From Amoebophrya sp. A120 (taxonomy: Eukaryota; Protista; Dinoflagellata), in the NCBI GenBank assembly GCA_905178155.1, contig CAJINV010000001.1:8463599-8527598 (forward strand): DNA of 64,000 bases, given 5' to 3'. The position numbers were made by a program, and so were the translations under genes. A model generated the notes under the pieces. That model saw only the letters and a list, made by a program, of their open reading frames with translations. It was not told the DNA's origin and ran no database searches. Positions 7,201 through 59,994 of the stretch are shown one piece after another (within the stretch, counting starts at the first letter, position 1; the number at the start of each line of letters is the position of its first letter).

Positions 7201-7263
7201 CGGAACCCGCCGGCGCCTCTGGGCTTTCCAATTCTTCATGTTCATGCAAAGTACGGTGATCAT
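1294..7263 (-). CDS. Large (1989 aa) uncharacterised, probably secreted/surface protein with Cys-rich N-terminal modules
   Basis: Uninterrupted 6-kb ORF with strong GC3 bias, a hydrophobic N-terminal segment and Cys clusters (e.g. RCGPAYHNRVC..YPYC..HGFC; CSDTCPTAQNGICEE..CPRGTDCTDCGPR). Confidence 0.85.
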   Translation of the reverse strand: MITVLCMNMKNWKAQRRRRVPAHPSLLWHACSFFFHAHLLLRLGANAAAGELPQEGLDVQLRATTSNNTWNNYMLREDVETTSGTIELQHHAASEAPEKRRSLSLPSCQSNPCKFMKDFTYRQVNVVDRSEDMHISYTHLEEFKMCLREYSVNHQNCHRYRSRSTTIPILTAACSGSSSCSECRTRSGTSSEGTLYFGVRCSADRKRCHHAITASKQGGSCQKTAQAAEQKMDDLAFLAATDALAWRDAQPVYHLDGYRANLMGSVGGCQDSTGRDVSNSKYDGRYVRGPSTAAGACGEHPTAVSAAADTPVSQYPDALRFVRDQCDKDDRCQGFYLSNTLPTLSIARPYKLVVPTVFAHRIKSTKDDVATVLQSANDTWSFGFGTPVCSAWTQLEDLYLKEIGPFACPEPAVPDASTGGDRPRCGPAYHNRVCFHKDYPYCREAHGFCENTPTQNTFRTNGVMGLGGHYEHDASILYRRTGKWDGPSYPLHCHEALRLGLTSGSEHPAFVVNEARMTPQTGAVLTYGMCGENTDHRQGAPPFTAGVQSQCFGELPGCSDTCPTAQNGICEEETAEHVAGAPTATQAGHFTSVKPALGSLRFTCPRGTDCTDCGPRPGVWRRVFSSGLERYDKDPVNSTQGLERELRDIFQEIVGAEQLVPVPTPMPPPGVIPVDAAVGGSYPATDADQKAYQSTAPHPGYFARVRVCRNVTNSVVEGEYPGDCVETLATLNLRHHWGTGAQPFGHVRKGGLTAGFLVNGQVCDSSCLKKHPDLDHLMANFGRFSASMPPSGSTGRQGDEFMEAAMQWRLSKRLVPRNMKELGSLPDRTQARDFYQPDYLVEEEQKQIENEWIRDLQFQTVSSASSAWAGHAKPGLYTTAREGFSTTASNSLSDVQTLQIQFTDDTPFGVSLGSTTTPDASFTAPGFSQVGFNMSVPGSGDGNLWLENSTNIAVYVSCTQARPGVVSAANFAAPSTAEQQKEKCKVLVERTPRDDVLLPWYAKTNFQNSSSEIALSATSPQQPALAVPQAAFTDPGFKFLMQFDYQVSDVSGICGGGTIDMVDDAEDPPLDLVALGAIAAGGAVTPPGRNFKNHFALNATMGPGLAKGWYDYFTNDAEINWKPSMKQRWLLSPDQVNVIGASCPQSDANQEEMYFYLQITGVPDLAAVEQMQRLFWHSLWQRRVYDMAIGDVSARNVPVTRTGVFMVWRHLTAGLDESLPWQQAKADNKVDLGVRAPYPGGIPAANQNWWEMFCLGFRSSYYAGDPLNGGRTRWGRMVPLGLGASYYAPNLVQAKFREAQAGARADSKKDFAQMLVANKPGSSYSQYRVELEIRIDFGVADAKCPPLDSPDAEGGKQWFVDTLGPRLSEALYQFLLMYGSPSPQIPQGSRLVYDTLSPESKRWAPSWPLSTRLLNSLTRSHIQVTSMLAPCRRFHRRVDQIMAPQGPFRFEIGPFWRQKSAEELALALQEIVEWRDDALPDTWLAQNSWLVKESPWRHLVQTFDDYLVVGVGKTADATTAEIRANVWNRGGGSGGRAATVMYVEPTRNYTIWKWHGGYLRNHPGYRYPAVVAYATFSDIQPAVGATALIPAPDTYAVLYAAHNPTAEWQAMDTVVSATSDAGAPLDPVGKLYTLAVHIGLKLVFHPDHAVRNCDDNRVFDLGGTGQNLYLKRKVGVPLLLALKSYVDTVLRSKLTHPFLPHFNQYRVLDTKCAQALQGGSTPYSDFYVEIAGFPTAAGAEEVKAALEFAGAVDYLAPGAPSLDADSQARENKHLEYVVARALEKWTTNATVADGEPRLFVPDGKYMIVDAAGERVPKPCCFQAPVVIYQQLGDPTAFQRTLTVQPFPSAGLLQMQTYDPTGTFVLSKQADNPFGVRFRLQLLLAVAGCTDDYLGLVAGQNLGRAIALAMYNFFRRDPIYGSEQPFNPLFAGPFLTHGQYQVWPDPDMGSSYAAKCGLVGTTPAATSSTGRPVDYSLLCKLEKKRAARSQ

Positions 7264-8526
7264 GCTACTAGCGGTAATGTCAATAGTGCTCGAGTATGAA
7301 TTCAGAAATGAGGGAAAATATCATGGAGTCTAGGGGTCATGCTTACATACCATGCTTGCATAAGTACTCAACCGACCCCCCCTCTATGGCCGCCAGGAGG
7401 AAATAAAATATTGTGGTGCATCATGGGTCAAATACGAATTATTCAAATGATACAGGTTAAAGAGTGTGTTTCTTGAATGAGTTGGTGGCCAGCACCTGTG
7501 TGTAGAAGTCAAAAATTGAGCGGTCAAAAATAACGAACTAACATGGCTGCTAAACGAAGAGAATCAAAACAGGCACCGACACACGTTTACGAGGAAACAC
7601 CGACGGGCAGACTTCAGCTTTCACGCGGCTGTCACCGAAAGTGATATTCACGACACTGTGTGATAAGTAGCACGAAATGAAGAACCGAGCAGACACCAGC
7701 TGGTGCTTTCTTGCGAAACCAAAACCGAGTAGAAGTTTTGTACATTTCGGGAAAGATGACCGAAAGCATTTACAGGAGCACACCGATAATTTTTCGCGTT
7801 CTTATTCCAAAGAAGCCGAATGAGCTGTGCAAACGCTCGAATTCCGTGCTGACAAGGAAGATCATGATTACGTTTCCGCAAAGCAGTACCGATACGTTCA
7901 GAAAGACCGATCCACATGCACAACGAAGATTGCAGCAGGAAAAAACAACGAGTAGAGCGTTGCTCCCCTTGCTCATCAAAAAGACACAGCTACTGCTTGC
8001 ATCAGTTGTGGTCGACAACTTGTCGCTCGAGATGCATATGAGCACGACCTCTGAGTTTACACTACTGTGCTGATACTTTTTTCAAGAAGACAAGATGCAA
8101 ACATATCAAAATCATATCAAGAAGATGAAACTTGTTCTTTCTGTATGGTTTCATTGAAACTGAAACATCATAAAACCGAAACTGGGGTTGCAATAAACTG
8201 GGATGATTCGAAGCAATACTGGGCAAAACTGCTTCAAGACAATAACTCTAGCTCCGTGTGCTGCAGCTTTTCCAGGCACTGGGCGAGGTCCTCTCGCAAC
8301 TGCTCGCATCCCGGAACGTCAGCGCGCCCGCTCGCACACGCCTTGCTGCCGGACTTTGACGCGGACCTTTTGGTTCCGAAAAAACCGCATTCGAGAGGGC
8401 AAACGCCTCGTCCACTATAAAAGCCGCAGCACCCGAGTGCGCTAAGGAGCATGTAGCTCATGCGATTCGTAAATATGAAATCTTTATCACTATTCAAACT
8501 GTACAATGTCAGAGTCATTTTAGTGC

Positions 8527-9891: not shown

Positions 9892-11053
9892 GATTTCTCA
9901 CGCGAACAACTTGAGTTCTGCTCGACGAGCGGGCTGCAAAGAGCTCCGATAGCACGACAAGAGTGCAGACAAAATAACTCGCACAACATAGCTAAACTTA
10001 TTCAGCAACAGAAACAAACAATATATCCGTCTCGCAAACTTTAGATGCCCAAAGAAAAAACGGAGGAAGTTCGTGCGGGAACACGACACAGGTTGATTAG
10101 CAGCTCTTTCGCGACGTTTCTGGATTTAGTTTGGCTAATTTTTGCCTATTTCCTAAAGCATTTCTGAATTGCTGACTGCCTTCGCGATGTTTTCGGATTT
10201 ACTTGGTGTCAATCACGTCCAGGTTTCCACTCACATTTGGTCAAGACACCTTTGAGTCGCTACCAGTTGAAGCCTATCGCGTCAAAAAATTTTGTCCACC
10301 CAGTTCGGGCTCCGAGTGGATAGTGTTCCGGTCCATGATGACCCATTGATTTTGATTGACGGGAAAAAACGTCGCTGCCCCATCCTGGTCCGCATAAACT
10401 CAACTTCCAAAAAGCACTCAAGTGTCCGAACCATCTTTCCTGGCACTACGGCAGCCGAAGAGAAGCGCTTTTCTGTGCGGGCCGCTGTTCCTCCCGGTTG
10501 TCGCATCCGCAACCCCAGGCCGCTCGAGTCTTTGGGGATACTACTTACCTTGACACGTTGCTCCATTTGCTTGCGCTGCTGCAGAAACTTGGGGAGGTGC
10601 TTGCAGTTGTGCTCGCTGTCCGTGCCAAGTGTCCACGTGGTGAATTTTCGAATGGAGGAACCGCGCACATTTGCCGACCCCCCGGAGCGCAAATCTCAAG
10701 AGGGGCGCTTGCCTTTGCGCGCATGCAACGTTGCGCGAGGCAGTTGCGGCCTTGCCACCGGTGCCACTGTTTCTCGTGTCATGGTTTGGTGTGCTGCCCA
10801 GCGCGGCGAACACGGCGAAGGACTGCGGACACCGCTCGCAAAACAATAACGACGATCACATTGCGGCTATATCGGGGCGCGCGCCGATGAAACAAACTCG
10901 CGGGCGTGAATATCGGCAGGCAAGAATGACAATGCGGCTGCGCCTTCTCCACTAGCACTTGCAGCGATTCACAGGCACTGATGATAGTACGCCGAGACCA
11001 ATCCCGGGCGCCCGCAAAGCCCGGTCGCGATCCCAGCGCACCGCCCCCCCGCG

Positions 11054-11411
11054 GGGTAGGGAGGGGGTGGGGAGGGGGTAGGGAGGGGGTAGGGAGGGGG
11101 TAGGGAGGGGGTAGGGAGGGGGTAGGGAGGGGGTAGGGAGGGGGTAGGGAGGGGGTAGGGAGGGGGTAGGGAGGGGGTAGGGAGGGGGTAGGGAGGGGGT
11201 AGGGAGGGGGTAGGGAGGGGGTAGGGAGGGGGTAGGGAGGGGGTAGGGAGGGGGTAGGGAGGGGGTAGGGAGGGGGTAGGGAGGGGGTAGGGAGGGGGTA
11301 GGGAGGGGGTAGGGAGGGGGTAGGGAGGGGGTAGGGAGGGGGTAGGGAGGGGGTAGGGAGGGGGTAGGGAGGGGGTAGGGAGGGGGTAGGGAGGGGGNGG
11401 GGGGGGGTAGG
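11054..11411 (+). repeat. G-rich 11-bp minisatellite (GGGGGTAGGGA)n, about 30 copies
   Basis: Near-perfect tandem array visible directly; an N at 11398 means the true length is uncertain. Confidence 0.97.
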
Positions 11412-12063
11412 AAGAGGAAATGCGGTAGGAAGAAGCCTGGCGAGGGAGGAAATGGTCTGAGGTCCGCAGTGTTCTTCTGTGGCATGTCAATAGCGCAGTC
11501 ATAGGCAAAGAATAGCGCGCGCGCTTTATTTTATGCACAAATTTACAGGTAGAGTATATACATACTCCACGAATTTTTGTATTTTTCAAAAATTGAAAAA
11601 TTTTCAAAAGTTAAAAAAATGCTTAATATTACAAAAGAATGCACAGAGAAACTAAGACGAGGGGCCCACGATGCATTTTTCTTGTCATTGTCATTATTTT
11701 TTTCAGAAAATACATTGTATATTCATAATTTCTGGCGGAATTGAAAAGGCTAAAAATTTCGACTTTGTGAAAATTTTCGGGAAGCTGTGGAATTGCAAGG
11801 AATTTACTTGTAAAATTGCAAGCCTTCCAATGCGTTTTATGTTTTCAAACAATTAGCATTGTAGTGATATACTACAAGTAGGCATATGTGAACACTTTGA
11901 AAATTTTTGAAAATATCTATTTTAACAATTTTCATTTTTACCTTAATACAAAACGCCAAGAGATCACCTATGTAGATAGCGCATTACATATATGCTCACT
12001 AGCATTAGTGTGCTACTTTAAAACTTAAGCTTCTAGCTTTTTTCTTTTTTCGAAAAATTTTGA

Positions 12064-13010
12064 CTGTGCGAATATGGGGCCTTTTCAAGTTTGGCCGCAA
12101 GGCGGCCCTATCCGGCTCGCTTTAATTAGTGCAGGTCTGAAATAAAGTTGCTGACAGCCGGAGTTGTCGTTTGCAAACCTGACAAGGCAAAAACTTGCCA
12201 TATTCGGACCGGTGAAACCTGTGCGAATATGGGGCCTTTTCAAGTTTGGCCGCAGGGCGGCCCTATCCGGCTCACTTTAATTAGTGCAGCTTTGAAATAA
12301 AGTCGCTGACAGCCGGAGTTGTCGTTTGCAAACCTGACAAGGCCAAAACTTGCCATATTCGGACAGGTGAAACAGGTGAAACCTGTGCGAATATGGGGCC
12401 TTTTCAAGTTTGGCCGCAGGGCGGCCCTATCCGGCTCGCTTTAATTAGTGCAGCTTTGAAATAAAGTTGCTGACAGCCGGGGTTGTCGTTTGCAAACCTG
12501 ACAAGGCCAAGACTTGCCATATTCGGACAGGTGAAACCTGTGCGAATATGGGGCCTTTTCAAGTTTGGCCGCAAGGCGGCCCTATCCGGCTCGCTTTAAT
12601 TAGTGCAGCTTTGGAATAAAGTTGCTGACAGCCGGAGTTGTCGTTTGCAAACCTGACAAGGCCAAAACTTGCCATATTCGGACAGGTGAAACAGGTGAAG
12701 CCTGTGCGAATATGGGGCCTTTTCAAGTTTGGCCGCAAGGCGGCCCTATCCGGCTCGCTTTAAATAGTGCAGCTTTGAAATAAAGTTGCTGACAGCCGGA
12801 GTTGTCGTTTGCAAACCTGACAAGGCCAAAACTTGCCATATTCGGACAGGTGAAACCTGTGCGAATGTGGGGCCTTTTCAAGTTTGGCCGCAAGGCGGCC
12901 CTATCCGGCTTGCTTTAATTAGTGCAGCTTTGAAATAAAGTTGCTGACAGCCGGAGTTGTCGTTTGCAAACCTGACAAGGCCAAAACTTGCCATATTCGG
13001 ACAGTGAAAC
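12064..13010. repeat. Six-copy tandem satellite with alternating 155/164-bp units
   Basis: Units starting ctgtgcgaat at 12064, 12219, 12383, 12538, 12702 and 12857. Copies 2 and 4 carry an extra acaggtgaa. Confidence 0.95.
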
Positions 13011-13165
13011 TTTTGAAAAAAATAAAAACACTTGACGCATGTCTAGTGTTTTAGTATGTGATGGAGTGTCTATGCAGAAAAGTAATCATATGGCTGCACC
13101 TTGGGCCATTTCAGTTCACAAAATCCGCCAAGGCAGCCACTTGGAAATTTTTGGGGTATATGATG

Positions 13166-13400
13166 CCCCCTCCATGTCCCCTTCCCACCCCTGCCATACC
13201 CCCCCTCCTCTCCCTAGCCCTTCCCTGGTCCCTCCGTAGCCCCTCCCTAGCCCCTTCCTAGCCCCTCCCTAGCCTCTCCCTAGCCTCTCCCTAGCCTCTC
13301 CCTAGTCCCTTCCTAGCCCCCCCCCAGCCCCTCCCTAGCCTTTCCCTTTTCCTTTCCCCTCCCTGCCCTGTCCCGAGCCCGTCCCGACCCCCTCCCTACA
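13166..13400. repeat. C-rich degenerate microrepeat (ccctagcctct)n
   Basis: Repeated ccctagcc(t/c)(c/t)t units at 13210-13340 within a pyrimidine tract. Confidence 0.85.
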
Positions 13401-33719: not shown

Positions 33720-36700
33720 ATGGGGGGCTGCTGCGCAAAAGCGAAGGACCCGGTGGGGTGGCAGCCGGTAGTGGACCTCAGGGATCGGACGAGCCAGCGG
33801 GAGCTGAGATCGAAAAAGTCCGTGCGATATCATACATCACAGATATTCGATGAGGACTATTCATTGGAGAACGAGGTGTGAGTTTGTTTCTCTTGATGCA
33901 ATGATTTCTTGCATTTTTTGTAATGTCGAATCTGCAGGGAGAAAAAACAAAAAGCCTTCGAAACAAAAAAAAGAAGATGCAGAAGATAGCAAAAACTACA
34001 TAAGAAAATAACCTCTCGCACGCCCTGATATACTAAATACAATATCAGGAAGTGCTCGGTAGTGGCTACAACGGGATGGTGAAAGTTTGCGTTTCGCGCG
34101 TGACCGGGGAGCGATGCGCCGTGAAGTCCTTCACGAAGCAAGTTTCGACCACGAGAAGTTCAAAGTCCCCCGGCAGCGACGACGACGACCCGCATCGACA
34201 GCTACTGAAAAACGAGTGCGAGATCTACCTCGCATTAGACCACCCAAACATCGCCCGGTTATGAGAGTGCACAGCTCCCCCTCTCCCTTATTTGTAATGC
34301 AAAATGCCAAATCCATGCCTTGCCTCTAGGCTCTCTCTGCATGACAGATTTCGGAAGCGCAAACAGTACTAGACTAGGCGCATAAATTTGTCATGCGTAG
34401 GCTCCACGTGTGCTGGTGTTTGTATAGCTGTTCAAGCCATACAAATGAGGGGGTGGGGGAGTTGTGCACTCTCATACCGGTTGATCGACTGTTACGAGGA
34501 CCAGTTTTCCATCTACTTTGTGATGGAACTTTGTTCCGGCGGCGAGCTGTACGCGCGGCTGATCGCTCAGAAGCAGTATTCTGAGTCCGATGCACAGGCC
34601 GCGGTGAAGCAGATGCTGCTAGTTATCACAGTAGAGATGAAGAATACAGTAGAGCCATAGAAGTTGTCTTCCAGAAAAAAAATTGATTTGCATTGCGGGC
34701 CATGATCTGCGCCCCTTTTTGTTGTCCGCATATGTTGATACAGGATTTTTTTTGTTGACAGGACTGTGGCAAAAATGTGATTTCTTTTTCTGGCACTCAA
34801 CGGGTTTGCAGCTTTTCTGTAGGATATAAGCTACCAACTATTTGCACCACCACGGTATCGTGCACCGGGACTTGAAGCTGGAAAATTTTCTCTATTGGGC
34901 GGAGGACAGCGACGTGTTGAAAATGATCGATTTCGGCTTTTCCCACGTGCTGAACGACAAAAAGCCCGTGGTTGCGGCCTGCGGCTCGATTTCCTACATG
35001 GCACCGGAAGTGATCGCGTCCGCCGCGGCGGCGCAGGCGGTGGAAAAAGCAGCCAGTTCTACTTCGTATCCCACAGAAAAAAGCTGGCAGGGCATATTTG
35101 TAATGCAAAAATAAATACACGGAAAAATCTGTCATGGGCGGCCTCATAGCATGCTATTTAGGATATGCAATACAAATTTTCTTGTCAATTTATTTTCGCA
35201 TTACAAATATGACCTGCCAGTTTTTTTCTGTGTGATGCTTCGTCGTCGAAGCCCATACCGCCCGCGGCGGAGAAGGAGGACCCGATCACGGACAAGGTCG
35301 ACATGTGGTCCCTGGGGGTGATCTATCCTCAGTAAAAACGTACCCACGCCAGAGTTGTAATGCAGATTTGCAAAGACAGGAAGACTTGTAATGCGCATCC
35401 CCATGAGAGCCATTTCCAATCGTGTTTTGGAATTTGTAATGCTGTAAACAGGATGAGCAGATGGATTTCTGATGCAGCTGGCCTTGCGAACCTGCACTAC
35501 GCTACGGACTGCAGCTTGTGATGCGTGACTCACAAAACTCCTAGGTTTGTGTTGCAAAATCCCCATCCTGACTCTGGTGTGGGTACGTTTTTACTCAGGA
35601 TATGATCACCTTCATGCTTTTATCCGGCTACCCGCCGTTCTCCGGGGGGCACGAGACGGAGCTGCTGTCGAAAATCCAGAATGCGCAGTACGTGATGATA
35701 CCCGAAAGGTGGCACAACGTGTCGGCCAAGGGCCGCGATTTCGTGGAGAAGTTGCTCGTGGTCTCGAAAACGCAGCGCATGACGGCGGAGGACGCGCTGC
35801 ACCACCCGTGGATAACCGAGGCGATCGCGCCCTTGTCGTCCTCCGCCGGGGTGCAATGGGGAACCGACGTGCTCGGCGGCATTCGAGAGTTTGCGACGGC
35901 AAGCCACTTCAAACGGGCATGTTTGAGTATGATGGCCTGGGGACTCACGCCCAAGGAGCGGGCACAGGTAACAAGAAGTTTAGTTGTACTGGTGTGCGAT
36001 GAGCGATCTGCTGTCCTTGGCAGCACGATGTCAGAACTACGCCTAAATTTTTAACTTGTCTCCAGTGCTGGCGTCAAAAACTACTTACGTACCTCGTCGC
36101 CTGTGGGAGTGAGTACTTACTAGACGTCGTTGCAAGAGACTTCTGGGCTCGGCGCCGTCGTATAGTAAGTTTTTACTCTCCCACAGGTCCGCGACTTGTT
36201 CTATGATCTCGACCGGGAAGGGGACGGCTTCGTCACACTCGACGTGTTCAAGGAGGCCTTGCAGGAGCACTACCCCAGTGTCGCCTCGGAGGAAATAGTA
36301 AGGCTTTTTCACGCGGTCGATACGAACCACTCCGGGAAGATTTATTACAACGATTTTCTCGCAACAATGCTCCAGTTCCGGCTCCACGTGCACGAGTCCC
36401 TGCTTCGACACACCTTCAACCAACTAGACGTCGGGCGGTCGGGAAAAATCACCGTGGAGAACTTGGCAACCATACTCGGAAAAACCTTCGAGGGCGCCAC
36501 CGTCGAGGAGTTCATGGATGAAGTCAAAGGTACAAGAACTTCTGCGACTGTATTAGATTGATGTTGTCGGCGGAACCACGGAGGAAAAGCATTTTTTTGA
36601 CCTGTATAAAAATCGCAGCATATAATTAGAACAATGAGCTGCAAGTCGACGACCAATGACAGTTTATTTGAACGGACGATTGCCGCGTTTGTACTAGTTG

Positions 36701-37794
36701 TGTTCTGGAATAACCAAAAAAAGGTGACCGCAACGGCGAGATATCGTACGAAGATTTCTGCAAGTACCTGGGTTGCGATCCGAATTCGAGCAAGTTGATC
36801 GTCGCCGCGGACGCGCTGCGGGGGGTGTCTCGGGAGGTCTACGAGGAGGTGGACCGCAAGCTGGAGCACCAGGAGGAGGTCGTTTCCAAGCTGTATATCC
36901 TGAGTAAAAACGTCCCCACACCAGAGTCAGGATGGGGATTTTGCAACACAAACCTAGGAGTTTTGTGAGTCACGCATGACAAGTTGCACTCCGCAGTGTA
37001 GTGCAGGTTAGCAAGTGCAGCCGCATCACAGATTCATCTGCTCATCCTGTTCACAGCATCACAAATTCCAAAAGACGATTGGAAATGGCTCTCATGGGGA
37101 TGCGCATTACAAGTCTTCCTGTCTTTGCAAATCTTGGTGTGGGGACGTTTTCACTCAGGATACTGTACCAGGAGGAGGAATCCAAATCCACGGTGAACGT
37201 GTATGGTGCTCTCAACTGTTACATTCTCAACTGTTACATATATTTGTGATGCAAGAATGGCAAAACTGAAGAGGGAAGATTGCGCCTTTTGCATGACAGA
37301 TTCGGCACAGATTCCCAGCCTGTTTGGGCCTTCCAGAATTTGTCTTGCGCAGCAGCTTGATCGCGTCGAATCTGATTGCAGTTTTGCATGACAAATCGTG
37401 TAACAGTTGAGAATGTAACGTTTGAGAACGCCATAACGTGGGCGGGGAGCAGACGGCCCAACAGATAAAGCAGACCGTTTCGGGCAGTACGTGGCCGCGG
37501 GAGGAGAGCAAGCTCGGCACGGCCGCGAAGGTCGCCGGGGAGCAGCAGGCGGCGCAGCTGGGGCTGGCGCACCACCACGGGCCCGAACGACAACCCTCGA
37601 AATCGGGGCTGGTGCCGCCGCCCCAGCTCGGACCGTCCGCGATTCTCGCAGTGTCAAGCAGGGACCATTTGTCGAGGGACAAAATATCCGGGACCGTCAT
37701 GAGTCGGAAGAGCGGTTCGAAAAACACCCCCACCAAAGTTGAGGAGGTACCGGTGGCGTTCGACCCGACAAAGGAGGACGATACGCGGATATAA
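33720..37794 (+). CDS. Calcium-dependent protein kinase (CDPK-like) with N-terminal acylation motif
   Basis: MGGCC N-terminus; LGSGYNGMV, AVK, HPNI, HRDLKLEN, DFG, APE, DMWSLGVI and GYPPF motifs; EF-hands DLDREGDGFV, DTNHSGKI and DVGRSGKI. Six introners plus GT-AG introns. Confidence 0.93.
34260..34476. mobile_element. Introner family F (TSD ccggt)
   Basis: TIR tatgagagtgcacagctcccc / ggggagttgtgcactctcata; the join gives HPNIARLIDCYED. Confidence 0.95.
34624..34826. mobile_element. Highly degenerate introner (TSD remnant ctagt/taagc)
   Basis: tatc...gata ends; the required intron length is 208 = element + 5, giving QMLLATNYLHHHG. Confidence 0.6.
35067..35237. mobile_element. Introner family C (TSD cttcg)
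   Basis: TIR tatcccacagaaaaaagctggcagggcatatttgtaatgc / gcattacaaatatgacctgccagtttttttctgtgtgatg. Confidence 0.94.
35324..35602. mobile_element. Introner family D (TSD tgatc)
   Basis: 32-bp TIR; the join gives WSLGVITFMLLSGYPPF. Confidence 0.96.
36896..37162. mobile_element. Introner family D, opposite orientation to 35324-35602 (TSD ctgta)
   Basis: The internal sequence is the reverse complement of the 35324 copy; the join gives VSKLYQEEES. Confidence 0.96.
37202..37435. mobile_element. Introner family E (TSD acgtg)
   Basis: TIR tatggtgctctcaactgttacattctcaactgttaca / tgtaacagttgagaatgtaacgtttgagaacgccata. Confidence 0.94.
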
Positions 37795-50719: not shown

Positions 50720-51817
50720 GCGAGTTTTTACATCGGAACAAACAAAATTTGCCAATCAAAAAAGCGTAAGACAGGCCCACAACGACCTGCAGCGTTCGTA
50801 AGCGACACAAGCAAGAAGAAAGTTCAAAAATACAATAAAAAAAAAAACAGTTCCTTCAAGCACAAGCTCCAAACTTTTTACACTTTTTACTTTTCAACAG
50901 CGAGAAACAGGACTACGTTTAAATTTTTAGAACATCACTGCTTTGTAGCCTTCCCAGCTTTTCAGTAGACTTTTAACTTTCAGCGTCAAGCTTTTAACTT
51001 TTCAACAACTTCAGTAGCAAACAAAATAGTACTCCCAAATCACTTTCGAACTTCTTATAAGAAAGAGCTTTCTCTCGTCCTCAGCAGCAGTTCCTTCTAG
51101 TTTTTCTAAGGTTGGAGCCAAAGCAGCTCCACCAAGTTGTCCTCTTTTTGTTGAAGTAGCGCTAGACACATGTGAAGAAAGAACAACTTTCAAGCGGTTC
51201 CATGTGACCACTCTCAACAAACAAACAAAAACTTGCCATCCACTAGTTTTCGAATCGCACGGACCTCCTGTGGACCGACCTGAACCTTTGAACCTGCGAG
51301 ATGCGACCCTTAGTGTGCCAATCTCTACTTCAATATTGCGTCTTTATACTTTTGGTTTTGCTTACGTTAGGGGGTACTTTGCCGATCAGAACGAGTGGTG
51401 TTCAAGCGGGATTGGACAAAACAGGGCTCGTGCATCCTGAGTGTTGTTGCGTAATTTGAAGGAGCAAATGCCGCTGCAGCCAGAAAGCATTGCCATCGTG
51501 ATGTAGGAAAAGTGCAAGATCGGGCTCCCATTGCTGGTCTACGCTGCCCTCAGAAAGAACAAGTCGTGTAGATCTTCGGTCAGATTGTATGTCTATGTAG
51601 TCAATGAAGTTCCGACGCAGAGGCAAGTCCTGCAAAACAGCGATCTTAAAGACCCTTTTTCGCCCAGGTCCTCATTTTGGAATGGGACTTCTTTACTTAT
51701 AATTTGTGTAAGTATGATAAAAGTGGCTACTTCGACGTACTGCTTCTGCTGCACCTGGGTCGTATAACGCTGTACCAAACACAGTAGGACACTCTAGATA
51801 CGAGTACCAACAAGATC

Positions 51818-54800
51818 ATGCGCGAATTCGTCGAGGCCTGCCTGGCGCAGGCCCGCGTGGATGCGGAAGAGATGCGGCCGCGCAACTTGCTCAGAAAGGG
51901 TCGATCCCGGGGCGAACGCATCTACATGCGGGTTGTGGGCCTGTGCGAGACCTCACTTCGCGGGTTTTTGGTGAAACTACCCCTGTTCCTGCTGGAGAGG
52001 ATACCGCACGCCGCCTCGCTCTGCTCCATTGGGTATCTGTACGTGTTTGCGCAGTGCACGGGGATGGCGTGGATGCTGCTGCTGCATTTTGCTTCGGTGT
52101 TGACCCAGGCGTTCGCTCGCTGTCTAAAGGACAGCTCGGCGAGCTGTTTGCGACCGCCGGAACACATAGAAGCTTCAACACAAACAGCCGGATCAGCAGC
52201 GAGCTCAATTTTCTCGGCATCAGTGCAGAGTGGTGGAGAAAGGGAAAAGGGGACAACGACTAGCAAGTCCCCAGCAGACATTTCGATCATTGAGCCATGG
52301 AACTTCAACACACCATCAACGGAGACTTTGATCGTCTTCTACCTGTACTATGCCATGGGCCGCATGCTGATCTTCGTGGTCTACGGACTGTACACCATTG
52401 GCTGGGAGTCCTTTCACGACTTCCCCACCGTGCGGAAGACGTATCCCACAGAAAAAAGCCGGCAGGGCATATTTGTAATGCAAAAATAAAAACACAGAAA
52501 AACCTGTCATGGGCGGCCTCATAGCGTGCTGTTTAGGATACGCAATACAGATGTTTTTGTGTATTTATTTTTGCATTACAAATGTGAATGTCTAGAAAAA
52601 AAAAATCCAATAGAAATTCTCCCCCGCCCCAATAGAAATTCTCCATATAGAGAATCTCCCGCGTCGAGTCTTTCGGTTCCCGCTTTGTCTTCGATTGCGT
52701 TTGATCTTCGCCTTCGCCTGGCGCAAAAGCTGTTGACCTTCCTCTGGCGCAAAAGCTGGCCGACTTTTTCAAAGTGCTCTTCTTGTTCCGTGCCCATGGA
52801 CGGGTAAAAAAGTTCCTGTGCATGTTTCGGCCTCGGGGGGTTCAGGTTTTTCGGGAAAGAAAGAATAACTCTGCAACGACCTGGCGGCCGGCGTAGGGGA
52901 AATAAAGAATATTCCCGCACAGTGCGCGCGCGCGGGCTTCTTTTTGAGCGGCCGGACGCTCTTGCTCGCCTATGCGCGGCATCTGGGTGGCGGCGTGGCG
53001 GAAATGAAAAAAATTTCTGCGCACTGCGTGGGCGCGGGCTTTTTCTTGTGAGCAGCCGGAGGCCCCTTATCGCCGGCCCGCGCGCCACATCGGTCTTGCG
53101 GCGTGCCGGTATCGGAAAATAAAAATGCGCGCCGTCGCCCGCGCGCCGCGCTTTGTAGCGATGTGGGATCGAAGTCTAAAAATTTTCGCGCGCTGCGCGC
53201 TTGCGAGTTTGCTTTTCTGAACGGCCGCGCACTCCCGCCGCCCGCGCGCCGCGTATGGTGGCGATTTGGGATCGAATTCAAAAAATTTTCGCGCGCGGCG
53301 CGCGCGCGAGTTTTTTTCTCTGAGCGGCCGCGCACCCCAGTCGCCCCCTTCGCGCGCCGCGCTCGGTGGTCATGCATGCGGAATCGAATTCGAAAAATTT
53401 CCGCGCGCGGCGCGCGCGCGAGTTTCTCTCCCTGAGCGGCCGCGCACCCCCGTCGCCCGCGCTTTGGCGATGCGGAGTCGAATCGAAAAAATTTTCGCGC
53501 GCTGCGCGCGCGTAAGTTTTTTTCCCTGAGCGGCCGGGCACCCCCATCGCCCGCGCGCTGTGTTTGCTTGCTTGGTGGCGGGGCGTGGGATCGAATTCCA
53601 AAAAAATTTGCGCGCTGCGTGCGCCCGAATTTTTTTCCCCGAGCGGACGCGCACCCCCGTCGCCCGCGCGCCGTGCTTGGTGGCGATGGGTGTCTGTCGG
53701 GTCGAATTCAAAAAATTTTCGCGCGCCGCGCGCGCGCGAGTTTTTTCTCTGAGCGGCCGCGCATCCCGATCCCGGTCGCCTCCCTGCGCGCCGCGCATGG
53801 TGGCGATGGGTGTGCGGTCGAATTCAAAAAAATTGTGCGCGCTGCGCGCGCGCGATTTTTTTTCCCTGGGCGGCCGCGCATCCCCATCGCGTGCGCGCCG
53901 CGCTTGGTGTCGATAGATGTGGAGGCGAATTCAAAAAATTTTCCCGCGCTGCGCGCGCGCGAGTTTTTCTCCTTGGCCGGTCGCGTATGTCCGTCGCCCG
54001 CGCTTCGCGCTTCGTGGCGATAGATGTGGAGGCCAATGCAAAAAATTTTCGCGCGCCGCGCGCGCGAGAGTTTTTTTCCTTGGCAGGTCGCGCATTTCCG
54101 TCGACCGCGCTTCGCGCCTGGTGGCGATGTGGGATCGAATTAAAAAAATTTTGCGCGTGGCGCGCGCGTTTCTTCTTCTACTGGGCGGCCGCGCACTCCT
54201 TTGCGCGCGCCACACATGGTGGCGCGTTTGCTGGGATTCAAAAAAAGTTTCGCGCGTTGCTGTCGCGCGCGCGGGTTGTGGGGGGAATGGGTTAAATTCT
54301 TTCGCGCGGGGTGCGGCTGCGTCGTGGTTGGGTCGGTGGAATGGGATAAATTCTCCTGCGCTGCGCGCCTGGAGTTCGTTTTTTCGAGCAGGCGGCGCGC
54401 GCTCCTTTTCGTGCGCCGCGGCTCTCGGCGTTGGTTGCGGGAATGAAAAAAAAAACTCCTCACGCTCCGCCCGCCTAGGCTTTTTCTTTCGTGCGCCCTT
54501 TTCCCGCGTGCCGCACCTAGATGGCGGCGGACCGGCGTTGTGGGGGCCCAAAAAAGTTTCGCCCTCTTTCGGGCAGGCGCGCGGACGTTCTCGTGTGTCG
54601 TGCCTGGCGCCGCAAAGTGGGCCGATCAAAGATTTTCGAGGAGCGCCGCGCGCGCCTACATTATCGCGCGTCACACCTAGTCGGTGTGGCCGTGCGTCGC
54701 GAAGATAATCTTCCGGGCTGCCGCTAGACGGCCTGGGCTGCGTACCTGTAGCCTTCCTGGGCAGGCTGCCCCTAGCATGATTGGGCTACCTCTGGCCTGC

Positions 54801-57800
54801 CGGGGCTGCCTAGCGAAGCCCGGCTTGCGGGTCTGCCGAGCAACAAAAGCCGATCTTGCTGGGCTGCCAGCCTTACGCACCTAGCAGAGCCTGGCCTGCT
54901 GGGCTGCCTGCCTAGGCTAGTTGCTAGGGCTGTCAGCCTAGCCGAGCACAGCCTGGCGCGCTAGGGCTGCTGGCCTAGCGAGGCACAGCCTGGCTTTGCT
55001 TGGGCTGGCAGCCTAGCAAAGCCTGGGTTGCTGGCTGGCAGCCATCTTAGATAGAGAGTCTCCATCTGAGATAGAGAATCTCTATCTCAGATGGAGAGTC
55101 TCTATTTCGGATGGAGAGTCTCTATTTCGGATGGAGAGTCTCTATTTCGGCTTCGCCACTGGTGGAGAAGCTGCTGAAATATAAGAAAAACACATGGGAA
55201 AACAGTAAGAAACAGAAAAAGAAAAAAAAGAAAGAAAAAAGAATACAGATACTCTATCTCTCATGGAGAATTTCTATTCTCCTCCGAGAATCTCTATTTC
55301 AAATAGAGACTCTCGGAGATTTTCTATTTCGAGAGCTGTACAATTGACCTTCCAGCTTTTTTCTGTGGGATAAGACGGTTTCCCTGTCCATGCGCGAGAT
55401 CGCGGAGCGGTACACGGTATCAAATGTAAAAATGTCTGGGTCTGGAAGATTGCAAACTTGTCATGCTAAATCTGCAGCATGCAAAAATCTGTGTTGCATG
55501 ATTAGCAAAAGTCGCCCGATTTTGACCAAGTCGGGAGGTAGTTTCTCATGCAGGATAGGCATTACAGAGGTCTCGCAGAATCTGTCATGCTAGGTCCGGC
55601 ATTCCAGACCTCCTGGGTCATGGAAAAGCAGCATGACAAATCGCGCATTATTCCAGACCCAGACATTTTTACATTTGATACACGGTGCGGGTGACGTGCC
55701 GGAGCCGCAGCCTGTCGCCGGCCGCGGGACTGGACAGCACGGCGACCTCCCGAACCTTCCCGCCGAACTCGTCCCACGCGAGCAGTGGTAGTCCGTTGGA
55801 AATCGACGAGTACCCGCCAATAGTAGACACGGATCGACCGAGCACCGCCTCCCTGGAGTCACGGTCGACGCGGGCGAATAGTTCCGGCGTCGGAAGCGAT
55901 ACCCTGGTGTCCTCGCACAAGATTGTGGACGAATTCGACCGGAGTGGGACCACCACGGCCACCGCGATAAGCGCGGTGACGGGAAAGGCCGCGCGGGTAG
56001 TAGAACTGAGCCCGAGAGAGAGCCAACTGCGGTCGGGCAGCAGTGTGACAGAGGAAACAGCGGGGCTCCGCCAGCGCCATCCGCAGAACGTTCGCAGCCA
56101 CAACTCGTCCGCCAGTCAGATTGATGGCAGAAGTGCGGGCGATCGCGACAACAGGTCGGATATATTGAAGGATGGGCTGGAGATTGTGGATCATGGAACT
56201 GTCCACATGAAGGGCCCCACTACGCGGAGCCGCAGTATCCAGAGCGAGGTGTCGACCGAAGGTGAGGAGCCTATGACTCCAAATACGGAACAAGGGGCCA
56301 ATGGCGCGGGAAACAATGCATTTTTCTCGTCAGAAGACGAGGAGCGAGCGAGGTTACGCCGGGAGAAGAAAAAAACCGGGGGTCGACGCGCGCTGCTGAT
56401 ACTTCCGCTTGTCTGGCTCTTCGTTTTGTGCGGCTGGCTCGCGGTCAGCAGCTTCTACTTCGACTTCACAGAGGGGTTATCTTCAGCAGATATGAGGAAC
56501 AGCAGCAGTAGCACGCTGTCCATGTCGGAGAGTATCATGCGACCCACGGGGCGCCTCCACCGGTGCTTCCTGTTCCTGATGCTACTCTCGCTCGTCCAGT
56601 GGGCGGCGCAGTACCTGTTTCTGTTTCCAAATCTCTTTTCCGCTTTGCTCCTCACGCCGCGCAGCACGGCTTTGTTTGGGTTCTACTTCCTCTTTTCCAT
56701 CATTGGCGGGGCGAGGCTAGTGTCCTGGTTCCTGTTTCCGCAGGGGAAGCAAACGAAAATGTTTTTCGGGGTCATCCCACACCACTTGCTGGATGTGGTG
56801 CTCGTGATGGCGTGGATGGGCTGGATGATGTGCACGTTGTTGCACTTGTTCGGTTCGCGGACGGCTTTCAAGCAGACCGGGTTTTTCAAGGAGCGGTTCA
56901 ACGACGACCAGCTGTGGCGCAACCACATCGCGATTTTCAAAGTGACCTACATCGTCCCCTTGATTCTCCACTTCTTCCGGGGATCGCTCTTCTCCTCGCA
57001 TTTGGGAATTCGGCACGCGATGAACGACTCGCTGATCATCATGGTGATGTACCCGCTGCTGCTGTTGTTGATTTGGACCGCGACGTTTCTGCTCGTCGCG
57101 GCCCTCCGCCGCGGCCGGCGCATCGGCATGCTGCAGCTCGCCACAATGGTGCCGCTCTGGTTCGTCAGTCAGTACGTCTGCTGGCGCTACTTGCAGCTGG
57201 AGTCGAAGTCAGCGATTTGTCTGGTCTGGGCGCATGGTGTGAGGCAGAGCTTACGGTTGTTCTCGCGAAAGACGCCCGCGTGGCTGGCCGCGGTGACGAG
57301 GGATTTTTTCGCGCAGATAGATGCACTGCTAGGAAGGGAGCCGAATGTGGTTGACAGGAACAATACTAAGAAGCTGTCCGCCGCTGCGTCGCCCACCTCC
57401 CCTGGCGTTTCGACGTTGTCAAAATCGAACCACGGTACTGCTACCGCGACGCCAATCTCCGCCGTCAAAGATGAGCCGGGGTTCGCTAGTAGCAAGCGCC
57501 GGGCGCGCATGTCCTCGCCGTCTCCGGAGAGTCCGATTTCAAAAATCAGTGTGGGCTTCGCGATGGGCAGCGCGGGAGATCCGCACGGGGAGCGGGACGA
57601 GGAGAACGAGAAAAATCCGATTATGAAGAAACCCAGACAGTCCATGCAGTACGTCATCGACGGGTACGGAAAGATGCTTTTAGTTTTGTCGGTGGTGTAC
57701 CTCGGCACCTGTCTGTTCCTCGCTTTCGTCGGCGAGATGCAGCGAATCTACAACATTCTCCCCATGACGATCTCGATGCACACGAGCGCATCGGACATCA

Positions 57801-59994
57801 TCTCGTTTGAAGCGAACCAAAGGGGTGCGGCGGAGAACGGTGAACAGGAAGCCACTAGTTTGGCGGCAGGCGAGAGCGATAAAGTAGACACTAGCCTTTC
57901 TGGCGAACAAACAAGCGTCACACTACTCCCAGACCCGAACTTCGTTTCTGTGAGCCACGTCGTGAGCCACTTGCAGGTGAAACTCGCAGACGCGAAAAAG
58001 CAGAAAAGTTCCAATTGGGTCGGCGGCTTGCTAGCTTCCATCACCGGCGGGGATAAAGAACAAGCAGCGGTTTCTCTTTCCGGTGCATCTTCGACAGCTC
58101 AAAGTACTGGGAAAAATCATCTCGGGGACCAGCAAGCGCAACCGCCGGACGGGAAGAGACCGGACGAGGATGGCAGCGAGGTAGAGTCAGAAGACGTAAA
58201 TGTCCTCTCTTCCACCTCGGCTGAACCTGGTAACGAATTCCGGAGCCGGAACCCGTTTTGGACGGTACCCAAGTACGCCGCCTGCGGCCAGCTCTACCAC
58301 GGGCTGACGCTGCTGGATTGGGCGCTGGTGGCGGAGAGCGTGTACCTCGAGTCGAAAGAGGAAAGGGAATATTTTCTGGAGAAAGTGGTTTTTCCGAATT
58401 CCTGGTACGAAAAGGACTTGTCGCAGCGGCCCCAGGTGCGCACGCACTCGTTCTCGAAGCACGGCAGTGCCGCATACATGGAGATTTTCTTTCCGGAGCA
58501 GGACATGACCGTGGTCGCGATTAAAGGTAAGTAACTAAAAGGGTCGATGTTGAGATTTCGAGATCTACAAGTAATTGATTTGGGATGCAATTAAGTTGTA
58601 GTTGTACACGGTAGTTAGAGTTACTTATTCGTTCTTCGGTTTTCAACGCAGTGAAGATCATCACCACATCACAGGTACCGACCCGCTGAAGTTGCTCGAT
58701 TTCCTCGAGGACCTGCGGATGTGGCGCGATGCGGTGGTGGTCAGTTTGCTCGCAAACCTATTTCCCGCCGTTCGCGCCTGGCCAAAGGCGACGACCGAGA
58801 TGGTGATTCGGTTCCAGCACGAGTTTCTAGAGAATTTAGGCCTGGTCGAATCTCACTGGGCATTCGACGAGTTGCTGCACAAGTACGGCGGCAGTGAAAC
58901 GGTACTAGTACAACCTACCGGGATCACAGAATTGCAGAACATCAAGTCGGAAAATGGTGTTTCCACGGCCTCGGCCGCGGCGAGTCCTGCCCCGCTTGAT
59001 GCAGATGCTGCAGAGCCACCACCGCAAGAAAAAGAATTATCCGACGAGAATCCTCCTGCACCGAAGCCGTCAAAAACCGTGTTTGTGGGGCACAGCATGG
59101 GCGGAGGTATTGCCAGCATTCTCGGGTTATCAAATGCAAAAATGTCTGGGTCTGGAAGAATGCAAGTTTGTCATGCTTGTCTGGCATGACTCGAGGTCGA
59201 GAATGTGTGTTGCATAGGCACGAAAAAGCCCTCTTACCTGTCATGCAAAAACGCAGTTTGCCATGCGGAATACGTAAGACATGGTAGCCAAAAAATTTGT
59301 CATGCATAGCTGCGTATTGCAGTGCGTCTACCATTCATTTTTAGCATTACAAGTTTCCTGACCCAGACATTTTTGCATTTGATACAGGTTTCTTAACCAC
59401 GCACCGGTAGTCGCTTTCCAGCCGCCCGGTGTGTACCACTCGATCGCGAAATTTCAGCAGGTAAAGCGGGACATGAAGGCGTATGACTTTGTGCACCACG
59501 AAACTCTGAACATTCTGGTGGAAGACGACTGGATCAACAACGTGTTTGACGAGCACGGCGGTTTGTTGCAGCAAATCGGGTGCGATTACCCCAATCGCAG
59601 CATGTACCTGAGCTGTCACCTGCTCGAGTCGGTAATCAACCACTTGTACAAGAGCTGCGGAGAGGACAGAGCGGACGACCTGGTGGAAATGGTCGAAGAG
59701 AAAATAGTTAAACCCGCGGGAGCAGGTAGTGCTGCCGCGTCTACCTCCACCAGCAAAGAGGCCGGCGTGACGAGGACCACAAAGGTAGAACGGCGCATCA
59801 GCAAGAAGCCGAAGCGGTTCGACTATGTGGAGTGGAAGTTTGAGGTGCTGACGCAAAGCACTTGGGACACGATTTCCGAGGAGGTTTCGACCTATGTAAG
59901 ATCGTCCACCTTCTACAGCTACTTTGTCGCGCTGTCCTCGTTCCGCTACACGGCCGCCTGTCTGGCGCTCGTCGCGGTGGTGCGGTTATTGTGA
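51818..59994 (+). CDS. Multi-pass membrane protein with C-terminal class-3 lipase domain (5' end uncertain)
   Basis: VVAIKG|TDP..DFLED, VFVGHSMGGG and AFQPPG motifs. Exons are joined across introners 52442-55372, 55418-55680 and 59128-59384 and GT-AG intron 58527-58674. Confidence 0.85.
53150..54300. repeat. Degenerate ~95-115-bp tandem repeat (about 10 copies), core gaattcaaaaaattttcgcgcg
   Basis: The core recurs at ~53274, 53386, 53480, 53593, 53704, 53820, 53928, 54036, 54137 and 54234. Confidence 0.9.
54715..55150. repeat. CTAG-rich microrepeats followed by 20-bp tandem repeats (gatggagagtctctatttcg)
   Basis: gggctgcc/cctagc units at 54715-55045; five ~20-bp units at 55050-55150. Confidence 0.85.
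55418..55680. mobile_element. Introner family A (TSD cacgg)
   Basis: Perfect 30-bp TIR; the join gives ERYTVRVTC. Confidence 0.96.
59128..59384. mobile_element. Introner family A (TSD cgggt/caggt), excisable as canonical GT-AG intron 59126-59387
   Basis: Family-A TIRs; the join gives SILGFLNHAPVVAFQPPG. Confidence 0.94.

What the first reader, a model, noticed from the sequence alone, without database searches (positions are those of the whole stretch)
52442..55372. A 171-bp introner expanded to a 2.9-kb intron by a nested repeat-rich element
A family-C introner was interrupted inside its right TIR by a ~2.75-kb non-coding element with TGT..ACA ends, subterminal inverted motifs, a ~110-bp CG-rich tandem array and 20-bp repeats. 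The outer TIR ends and the agacg TSD are intact, and the flanking exons still join in frame (PTVRKT|VSLSMRE). If it is spliced, excision depends only on the outer ~28 bp pairing across 2.9 kb, and introners act as safe landing sites for other elements.
Basis: partly seen in the sequence, partly recalled or inferred. Interest (0 to 1): 0.75.

Follow-up and report, generated by a model that had tools for sequence, protein, structure and literature searches.

The report
Transposon nested inside a spliced introner
In the marine parasite Amoebophrya, a 2.76-kb repeat-rich element, likely a non-coding DNA transposon, sits inside a 171-base mobile intron, and a contig from a likely RNA run joins the gene's exons exactly across the whole 2,936-base nest without GT-AG borders, so the cell likely recognises these odd introns by their ends and tolerates what lands between them.

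Summary
The nest is real. The host halves (52442-52587, 55348-55372) add up to 171 bp and match a sibling introner at 153 of 171 bases without gaps. The insert is 52588-55344 (±1) between two copies of TGA. TGT..ACA lies 1-2 nt inside these ends and gives no duplication. A 4,813-nt likely-RNA contig with no mismatches skips exactly 2,936 nt; none of the 7 equivalent cuts is GT-AG. The spliced frame equals a public 1,520-aa Amoebophrya A120 protein. DNA runs hold the insert at single-copy depth plus diverged relatives; the 2 listed flanks of relatives are not at this host site, so targeting is unsupported. Its layout is CACTA-like (palindromic subterminal motifs, captured 107-bp array, 2-3-bp duplication) but it lacks CACTA ends; the family is unassigned. 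Folding predicts the outer stem and the host's inner hairpin survive, equally with shuffled inserts. That pairing drives splicing is inferred. No listed DNA contig bridges the host-insert junctions. The scan noted larger nested inserts in introners elsewhere in this genome. Verdict: new variant of a published intron class.

The parts
51818..52441 (+). Exon 1 of the host gene (M...PTVRKT); last 6 nt can be assigned to either side of the cut
52437..52441 (+). Left copy of the 5-bp direct repeat AGACG of the host introner
52442..52587 (.). Host introner, first 146 bp: outer left arm 52442-52469 and intact inner inverted repeat 52468-52507 / 52547-52586
   Evidence: 132/146 to sibling
52585..52587 (+). 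Left TGA, likely target duplication of the insert
   Evidence: sibling contigs continue directly into the right arm after 52587 (loose ends)
52588..55344 (.). Nested 2,757-bp element (ends uncertain by 1 nt; right end not confirmed in another copy), with diverged relatives in the genome, no recognisable gene
52609..52659 (.). Three copies of a near-palindromic 12-16-nt subterminal motif (left end)
   Evidence: (D16)
52711..52758 (+). Two 22-nt direct repeats
   Evidence: D20
52881..54460 (+). CpG-rich tandem array, unit 94-116 nt (core 53132-54196, 10 units, mean pairwise identity 75%, CpG o/e 1.68)
54808..55030 (+). Degenerate 37-bp repeats
55042..55150 (.). 20-bp repeats, 5.1 copies, each carrying the subterminal motif
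55243..55331 (.). Right subterminal motifs, inverted relative to the left ones (16-nt perfect pair 52631-46 / 55263-78)
   Evidence: (I16)
55345..55347 (+). Right TGA
55348..55372 (.). Host introner, last 25 bp (outer right arm)
   Evidence: 21/25 to sibling
55373..55377 (+). Right copy of AGACG, removed with the intron
55378..55417 (+). Short exon 2 (39-40 nt by placement) between two introners
55418..55680 (.). Ordinary 263-bp introner of another family, spliced in the same contig (internal control)
35067..35237 (.). Uninterrupted 171-bp sibling of the host introner (empty-site reference)

Best explanation
A 2.76-kb element, likely a non-autonomous cut-and-paste DNA transposon, lies inside a 171-bp introner 25-28 bases from its right end, and a likely-RNA contig lacks the whole 2,936-base nest exactly, likely because the splicing machinery reads only the introner's ends, which are predicted still to pair. 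Order of events (inferred): (1) the introner entered the exon and duplicated AGACG; (2) the second element inserted between the host's inner hairpin and outer right arm and duplicated 2-3 bases; (3) the pre-mRNA would fold into an outer stem, the untouched inner hairpin and a separate insert domain, so the same non-GT-AG cut removes everything with one repeat copy. The palindromic motifs at both ends of the insert would be binding sites for a transposase supplied from elsewhere. The insertion likely persists because it is spliced out (survival), not because the element aims at introners.
For: Shown: colinear 171-bp host; siblings run straight through the site (11-12 contigs per DNA run with loose ends behind 52587). 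Contig X3 record 3 (4,813 nt, depth 30, 0 other letters) joins 52435 to 55372 and also skips three other introns, two with possible GT-AG ends, so it is a transcript. X4 (same sample) has a 4,791-nt contig whose piece stops at 52435 and whose depth reappears in the last bin. Spliced ORF = P0001, 1,520/1,520 aa; retention would stop at codon 224. None of 7 placements is GT-AG; an in-frame GT-AG alternative (2,945 nt) exists but is not what the contig shows. Insert present in DNA run X1 as four zero-mismatch contigs at depth 41-49 against 47 for the exon; relatives at 85-95% raise summed depth to 55-1,194. One relative starts at 52587 after 411 unrelated nt; another leaves at 55333 into 13 kb of other sequence. 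Predicted: outer-stem pair probabilities 0.74-1.0 over the first 18 pairs, inner hairpin 0.93 or more in 23 of 24; arm duplex -36.3 against -37.8 kcal/mol in the sibling.
Against: No listed DNA contig bridges either host-insert junction (1,765 pieces not shown), and no long reads were seen. The joint is seen in one sample only (X3, X4); X6 does not cover it, and X9/X10 carry no reads on the exons. 'RNA' is the tool's guess. That the RNA sample's cells carry the insert is inferred from strain identity. P0001 probably derives from the same kind of data and is not independent. The terminal repeat of the insert is weak (6 of 10 at best), the duplication is short enough for chance (1 in 64 for 3 nt), and the one other right end stops 11 nt short. 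No transposase or autonomous partner was found. Equilibrium folding of 3 kb ignores co-transcriptional kinetics.
Confidence: 0.65

Rival explanations
1. Targeted nesting: the element's transposase prefers introners, for example next to the motif that the introner families share, and so hides in self-removing introns.
For: The insertion lies 4 nt 3' of a copy of the shared 13-nt motif at 52571-52583, found 27 times at 2 or fewer mismatches in the window, mostly in introners. Unreviewed scan notes report other elements landing near such a motif.
Against: 2 of 2 listed flanks of other copies do not continue into this host family (X4 record 21, X1 record 7). The motif has several copies per introner, so nearness is expected. 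One insertion only.
Confidence: 0.15
2. The insert is a rolling-circle (Helentron/HINE-type) non-autonomous element carrying a satellite-like array, and the TGA match is chance.
For: Subterminal inverted motifs around a central tandem array fit the HINE layout (PMC7492417 passages); the terminal repeat is weak.
Against: HINEs make no target duplication and prefer TT; here every model that restores the 171-bp host needs a 2-3-bp duplication and the site is not TT.
Confidence: 0.12
3. Two-step removal: the insert is first spliced as an intron of its own through its paired subterminal motifs, restoring a short introner that is then removed.
For: The insert's ends are predicted to pair with probability about 0.5.
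Against: It lacks the TAT..ATA ends and 5-bp repeat of the spliced elements; its ends are no closer in the fold than in shuffles (33 steps against 7-50 in 9 shuffles); no such joint appears among the listed RNA joints (19 joints hidden).
Confidence: 0.06
4. Misassembly, or an allele absent from the cells that made the RNA.
For: No bridging DNA contig among those listed.
Against: Exact 171-bp complementation with a duplication; locus-identical insert contigs at full single-copy depth in X1 (half to three quarters of the exon depth in X2); two 169-nt zero-mismatch pieces in a separate estuary study, X8, at depth under 3.
Confidence: 0.05

Closest known systems
Introner elements / non-canonical introns of Amoebophrya sp. 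A120 (Farhat et al. 2021, PMC7789003; abstract, passages, sections 11, 12, 16, supplement search)
   Same: TAT start plus A-run, inverted ends, short direct repeat at the exon borders, non-GT-AG removal, multi-copy family; host gene named A120 by its source.
   Different: That study analysed introns of 40-1,000 bp only and does not use the word 'nested' in text or supplement. This one is 2,936 nt and holds a second element.
Non-autonomous CACTA (En/Spm) elements (PMC8978399, passages)
   Same: Subterminal 10-20-bp units in direct and inverted orientation, 3-bp duplication, captured satellite array.
   Different: No CACTA terminal motif, only a weak terminal repeat, no transposase; the duplication may be 2 bp.
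Ginger1/Ginger2 transposons (PMC2836005, passages)
   Same: TGT..ACA near the ends.
   Different: Termini are not TGTNR, no 4-5-bp duplication, no 40-270-bp terminal repeat.
HINE/Helentron elements with central tandem repeats (PMC7492417, passages)
   Same: Central satellite-like array between modules with subterminal inverted motifs.
   Different: HINEs make no duplication and insert at TT.
Euglenid nonconventional introns (PMC11282704, PMC12501133, passages)
   Same: Non-GT-AG borders, paired ends, lengths up to several kb; small central changes (5 bp) did not affect splicing in Euglena tests.
   Different: Euglena uses a CAG..CTG code; an unrelated lineage; kb-scale central insertions were not tested in the passages seen.

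Membership tests
A120 introner element (host) | Inverted repeat at the intron ends, starting TAT + 7 nt + A-run | tested here: met
   TATCCCACAG followed by six A; 28 nt, 89%; definition
A120 introner element (host) | 3-5-nt direct repeat at the exon borders | tested here: met
   AGACG on both sides
A120 introner element (host) | Repeated family | tested here: met
   Sibling in window 153/171; summed DNA depth 47,575 against 47 (no true copy number)
A120 introner element (host) | Removed from RNA at non-GT-AG borders | tested here: met
   One contig joint of 2,936 nt in a likely RNA run; 0 of 7 placements GT-AG
CACTA/EnSpm (insert) | CACTA terminal motif in TIRs | tested here: not met
   Ends read (A)ATGTC and ATTGTA on the other strand
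CACTA/EnSpm (insert) | 3-bp target duplication | tested here: inconclusive
   TGA, but 2-bp models fit equally; one copy only
CACTA/EnSpm (insert) | Subterminal 10-20-bp units, direct and inverted | tested here: met
   3 left, 8 right, 1 internal; 2 elsewhere in window
CACTA/EnSpm (insert) | Cognate transposase in an autonomous partner | not testable with these tools
Ginger (insert) | TGTNR termini with 4-5-bp duplication | tested here: not met
   Fifth base is a pyrimidine at both ends; no repeat flanks 52589-55342
Ginger (insert) | 40-270-bp terminal inverted repeats | tested here: not met
   Longest end-to-end arm pair is 16 nt, subterminal
HINE/Helentron (insert) | No duplication, insertion at TT | tested here: not met
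HINE/Helentron (insert) | Central tandem array between modules with subterminal inverted repeats | tested here: met
A120 introner element (insert itself) | TAT..ATA ends with 5-bp repeat | tested here: not met
   Not among 16 candidates
Spliced-leader-capped retroposon (insert) | Leader relic at the 5' end | tested here: not met
   A recalled 12-nt leader core hit 2 places in the window at 2 mismatches, none in the insert

The most novel reading that the evidence does not exclude
The insert belongs to an unclassified DNA transposon group (CACTA-like subterminal sites, no CACTA ends, 2-3-bp duplication) that seeks out introners as shelters, and Amoebophrya's non-canonical splicing is set by a 25-28-bp terminal helix alone whatever the length between, so that introners act as universal splice-out cassettes for other mobile DNA.
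Probability: 0.15. Interest if true: 0.75.

Novelty: new variant of a known kind. Interest (0 to 1): 0.5.

Why it matters
How Amoebophrya removes tens of thousands of non-GT-AG introns is open; no U1 snRNA was detected (PMC7789003). This locus is a natural insertion mutant: a 17-fold longer intron with only the last 25-28 bases of the right arm left beside the exon is still absent exactly from a transcript contig, next to ordinary introners in the same contig. That confines the needed signals to the ends (and possibly the intact inner hairpin), argues against a length limit, and concerns a size class that the published analysis excluded (over 1 kb). It also shows how exons can hold kilobases of mobile DNA without loss of the reading frame. 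Transposons inside introns are common in general, which limits the surprise.

Tried and rejected
No second copy of the insert in the window. Exact-pattern scans found nothing in metagenome contigs or viral contigs. Rfam: 9 matches, all far below gathering scores, hairpin look-alikes. No run was on record as an RNA holder. Idea that the insert's own end pairing brings the splice sites unusually close: rejected, 33 steps against 7-50 in 9 shuffles, and the outer stem formed in 10 of 10 folds. GT-AG readings: 2,934 and 2,958 nt give early stops, 2,945 and 2,969 nt are open but contradict the contig. A second long candidate, 3697-6868, is at chance level and lies in a 2,008-aa ORF. ATG-started frames in the insert (11 of 60 aa or more, longest 263 aa, mostly repeat-derived) were not searched against protein libraries. 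The host protein had no relative but itself among 7,991 candidates scored; Pfam gave only sub-threshold Lipase_3 (E 0.0017). Earlier-finding searches by sequence found no look-alike. One paper on duplication lengths was not held.
Full report
Setting. The window carries many TAT..ATA elements with 5-bp direct repeats: 16 candidates up to 4 kb, of which 14 are 150-388 bp, one is this locus and one is at chance level. The gene around the finding encodes P0001, which its source names an Amoebophrya sp. A120 protein. The ends match the published A120 introner signature (PMC7789003 section 11).

Observation. The arms 52442-52469 and 55345-55372 are 89% complementary over 28 nt, and AGACG flanks both. 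52442-52587 plus 55348-55372 make 171 bp and match the sibling at 35067-35237 at 153 positions without a gap. In DNA runs X1 and X2, 12 and 11 contigs of other family members continue after 52587 straight into the right arm, which fixes the insertion point. TGA stands at 52585-87 and 55345-47. The TG model gives the best terminal symmetry, 6 of 10.

Splicing. Contig 3 of run X3 (RNA by the tool's guess; 4,813 nt, depth 30.3, no other letters in the four listed pieces) joins 52435 to 55372, skipping 2,936 nt, and also skips 268, 148 and 262 nt further on. Joining at these places gives a 1,520-aa frame identical to P0001; retention stops at codon 224. The cut can slide over 6 nt; none of the 7 placements is GT-AG, and the open GT-AG alternatives (2,945 and 2,969 nt) would remove bases that the contig keeps. 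X4, of the same sample, has a 4,791-nt contig whose listed piece stops at 52435, with depth 15.5 in the last bin as expected from about 41 covered bases; its joint row was not displayed. X6, X9 and X10 gave nothing on this joint. So the evidence is one sample, and contigs drop rare forms, so efficiency is unknown. The public gene model already treats the stretch as an intron.

The insert. It has three near-palindromic 12-16-nt motifs at the left end and eight at the right; 12 of 14 window hits lie in these 2.76 kb. Between them lie a CpG-rich array of 94-116-nt units (mean identity 75%), 37-bp repeats and 20-bp repeats. Rfam gave nothing at threshold. In X1 four zero-mismatch contigs inside the insert have depth 41-49 against 47 for the exon; in X2 15-25 against 33. 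Diverged relatives raise summed depth to 55-1,194 per bin in X1, which suggests several to about ten related copies, though summed depth is no copy number. One relative begins at 52587 after 411 unrelated bases (X4 record 21), another contig ends at 52588 (record 22), and a 13.5-kb single-copy contig leaves the alignment at 55333 (X1 record 7). The left end is thus supported to 1 nt, the right end is not confirmed, and neither listed flank is this host site. An estuary metagenome of another study holds two 169-nt pieces identical to this copy at depth under 3. No listed DNA contig bridges the host-insert junctions; 1,765 pieces were not shown.

Family. The layout resembles non-autonomous CACTA elements (subterminal 10-20-bp units, 3-bp duplication, captured satellite; PMC8978399 passages) but the CACTA motif is absent. 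Ginger fails on TGTNR, duplication and repeat length (PMC2836005 passages). HINE fits the array but not the duplication or the TT site (PMC7492417 passages). It works like a CACTA-type derivative by inference; it is not filed as a member.

Mechanism. Predicted folding of the whole intron keeps the outer stem (0.74-1.0 over the first 18 pairs; 0-0.92 over the last 7) and the host's inner hairpin (23 of 24 pairs at 0.93 or more); the insert's ends pair at about 0.5. The arm duplex is nearly as strong as the sibling's. With 9 dinucleotide-shuffled inserts the outer stem (20-23 of 25) and hairpin (20 of 20) formed every time and the insert ends were as close, so nothing special in the insert is needed in this model; that folded RNA ends tend to be close is general (PMC13490249, search listing only). 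End-defined removal is therefore the best reading, but pairing versus end sequence is untested. Euglena offers a tested analogue with an end code (PMC12501133 passages). An earlier scan note proposes cuts one base before and four after the arms; placement 52441-55376 fits, but the repeat prevents a test here.

Known or new. The intron class is published. Farhat et al. limited analysis to 40-1,000 bp. 'Nested' had 0 hits in PMC7789003 text and its one held supplement, PMC12130899 and PMC11282704; a search for 'introner' with 'nested insertion' found 0 papers, and searches listed none on this by title or abstract start. Gozashti et al. filter out secondary transposon insertions into existing introns, so the general event is recognised. 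Their datasets and Roy et al. 2023 were not read and may bear on this. Unreviewed notes of this scan describe 2-14-kb inserts in introners elsewhere in this genome, some with spliced contigs; none matched this insert by sequence. I did not check those loci.

Verdict. A real nested insertion in a spliced non-canonical intron, with an unassigned passenger element. New variant of a known kind; interest 0.5.

Noticed in passing
window 11053-13396: A second array-bearing block outside any long ORF: inverted 11-bp G-rich/C-rich arrays around an AT-rich stretch and six 155-bp tandem units at 92%. It contains the window's only N (11398). Ends and duplication not defined.
   Followed up: partly
window 55378-55417: A 39-40-nt exon between two introners is kept correctly in the transcript contig.
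   Followed up: yes
window 51818-59994: Host protein, 1,520 aa, with hydrophobic segments and a GHSMGG lipase-like motif split by an introner; no relative found but itself.
   Followed up: partly
window 52585-55345 (tables 5 and 5c): Single-copy sibling introners differ by a few extra bases right at the insertion site (for example CTG between 52585 and 55345). Ordinary variation or excision footprints; not resolved.
   Followed up: no
window 52616-55142: An X6 contig joint skipping 2,525 nt between two motif copies (side 30, depth 40.7): a short internally deleted relative or a mapping artefact.
   Followed up: no
window 16649-59384: A 13-nt motif (52571-52583) recurs 27 times at 2 or fewer mismatches, mostly inside introners of different families.
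   Followed up: partly
window 1294-7320 (- strand): A 2,008-aa open frame with no introner, in a GC-rich stretch.
   Followed up: no
window 35324-35602 and 36896-37162: Two copies of one introner family in opposite orientation in the same kinase-like gene, 89% alike, able in principle to cross-pair over 1.3 kb.
   Followed up: no
window 50885-51230: Contigs of other copies with loose ends lie on this intergenic stretch in likely RNA runs, suggesting another repeat.
   Followed up: no
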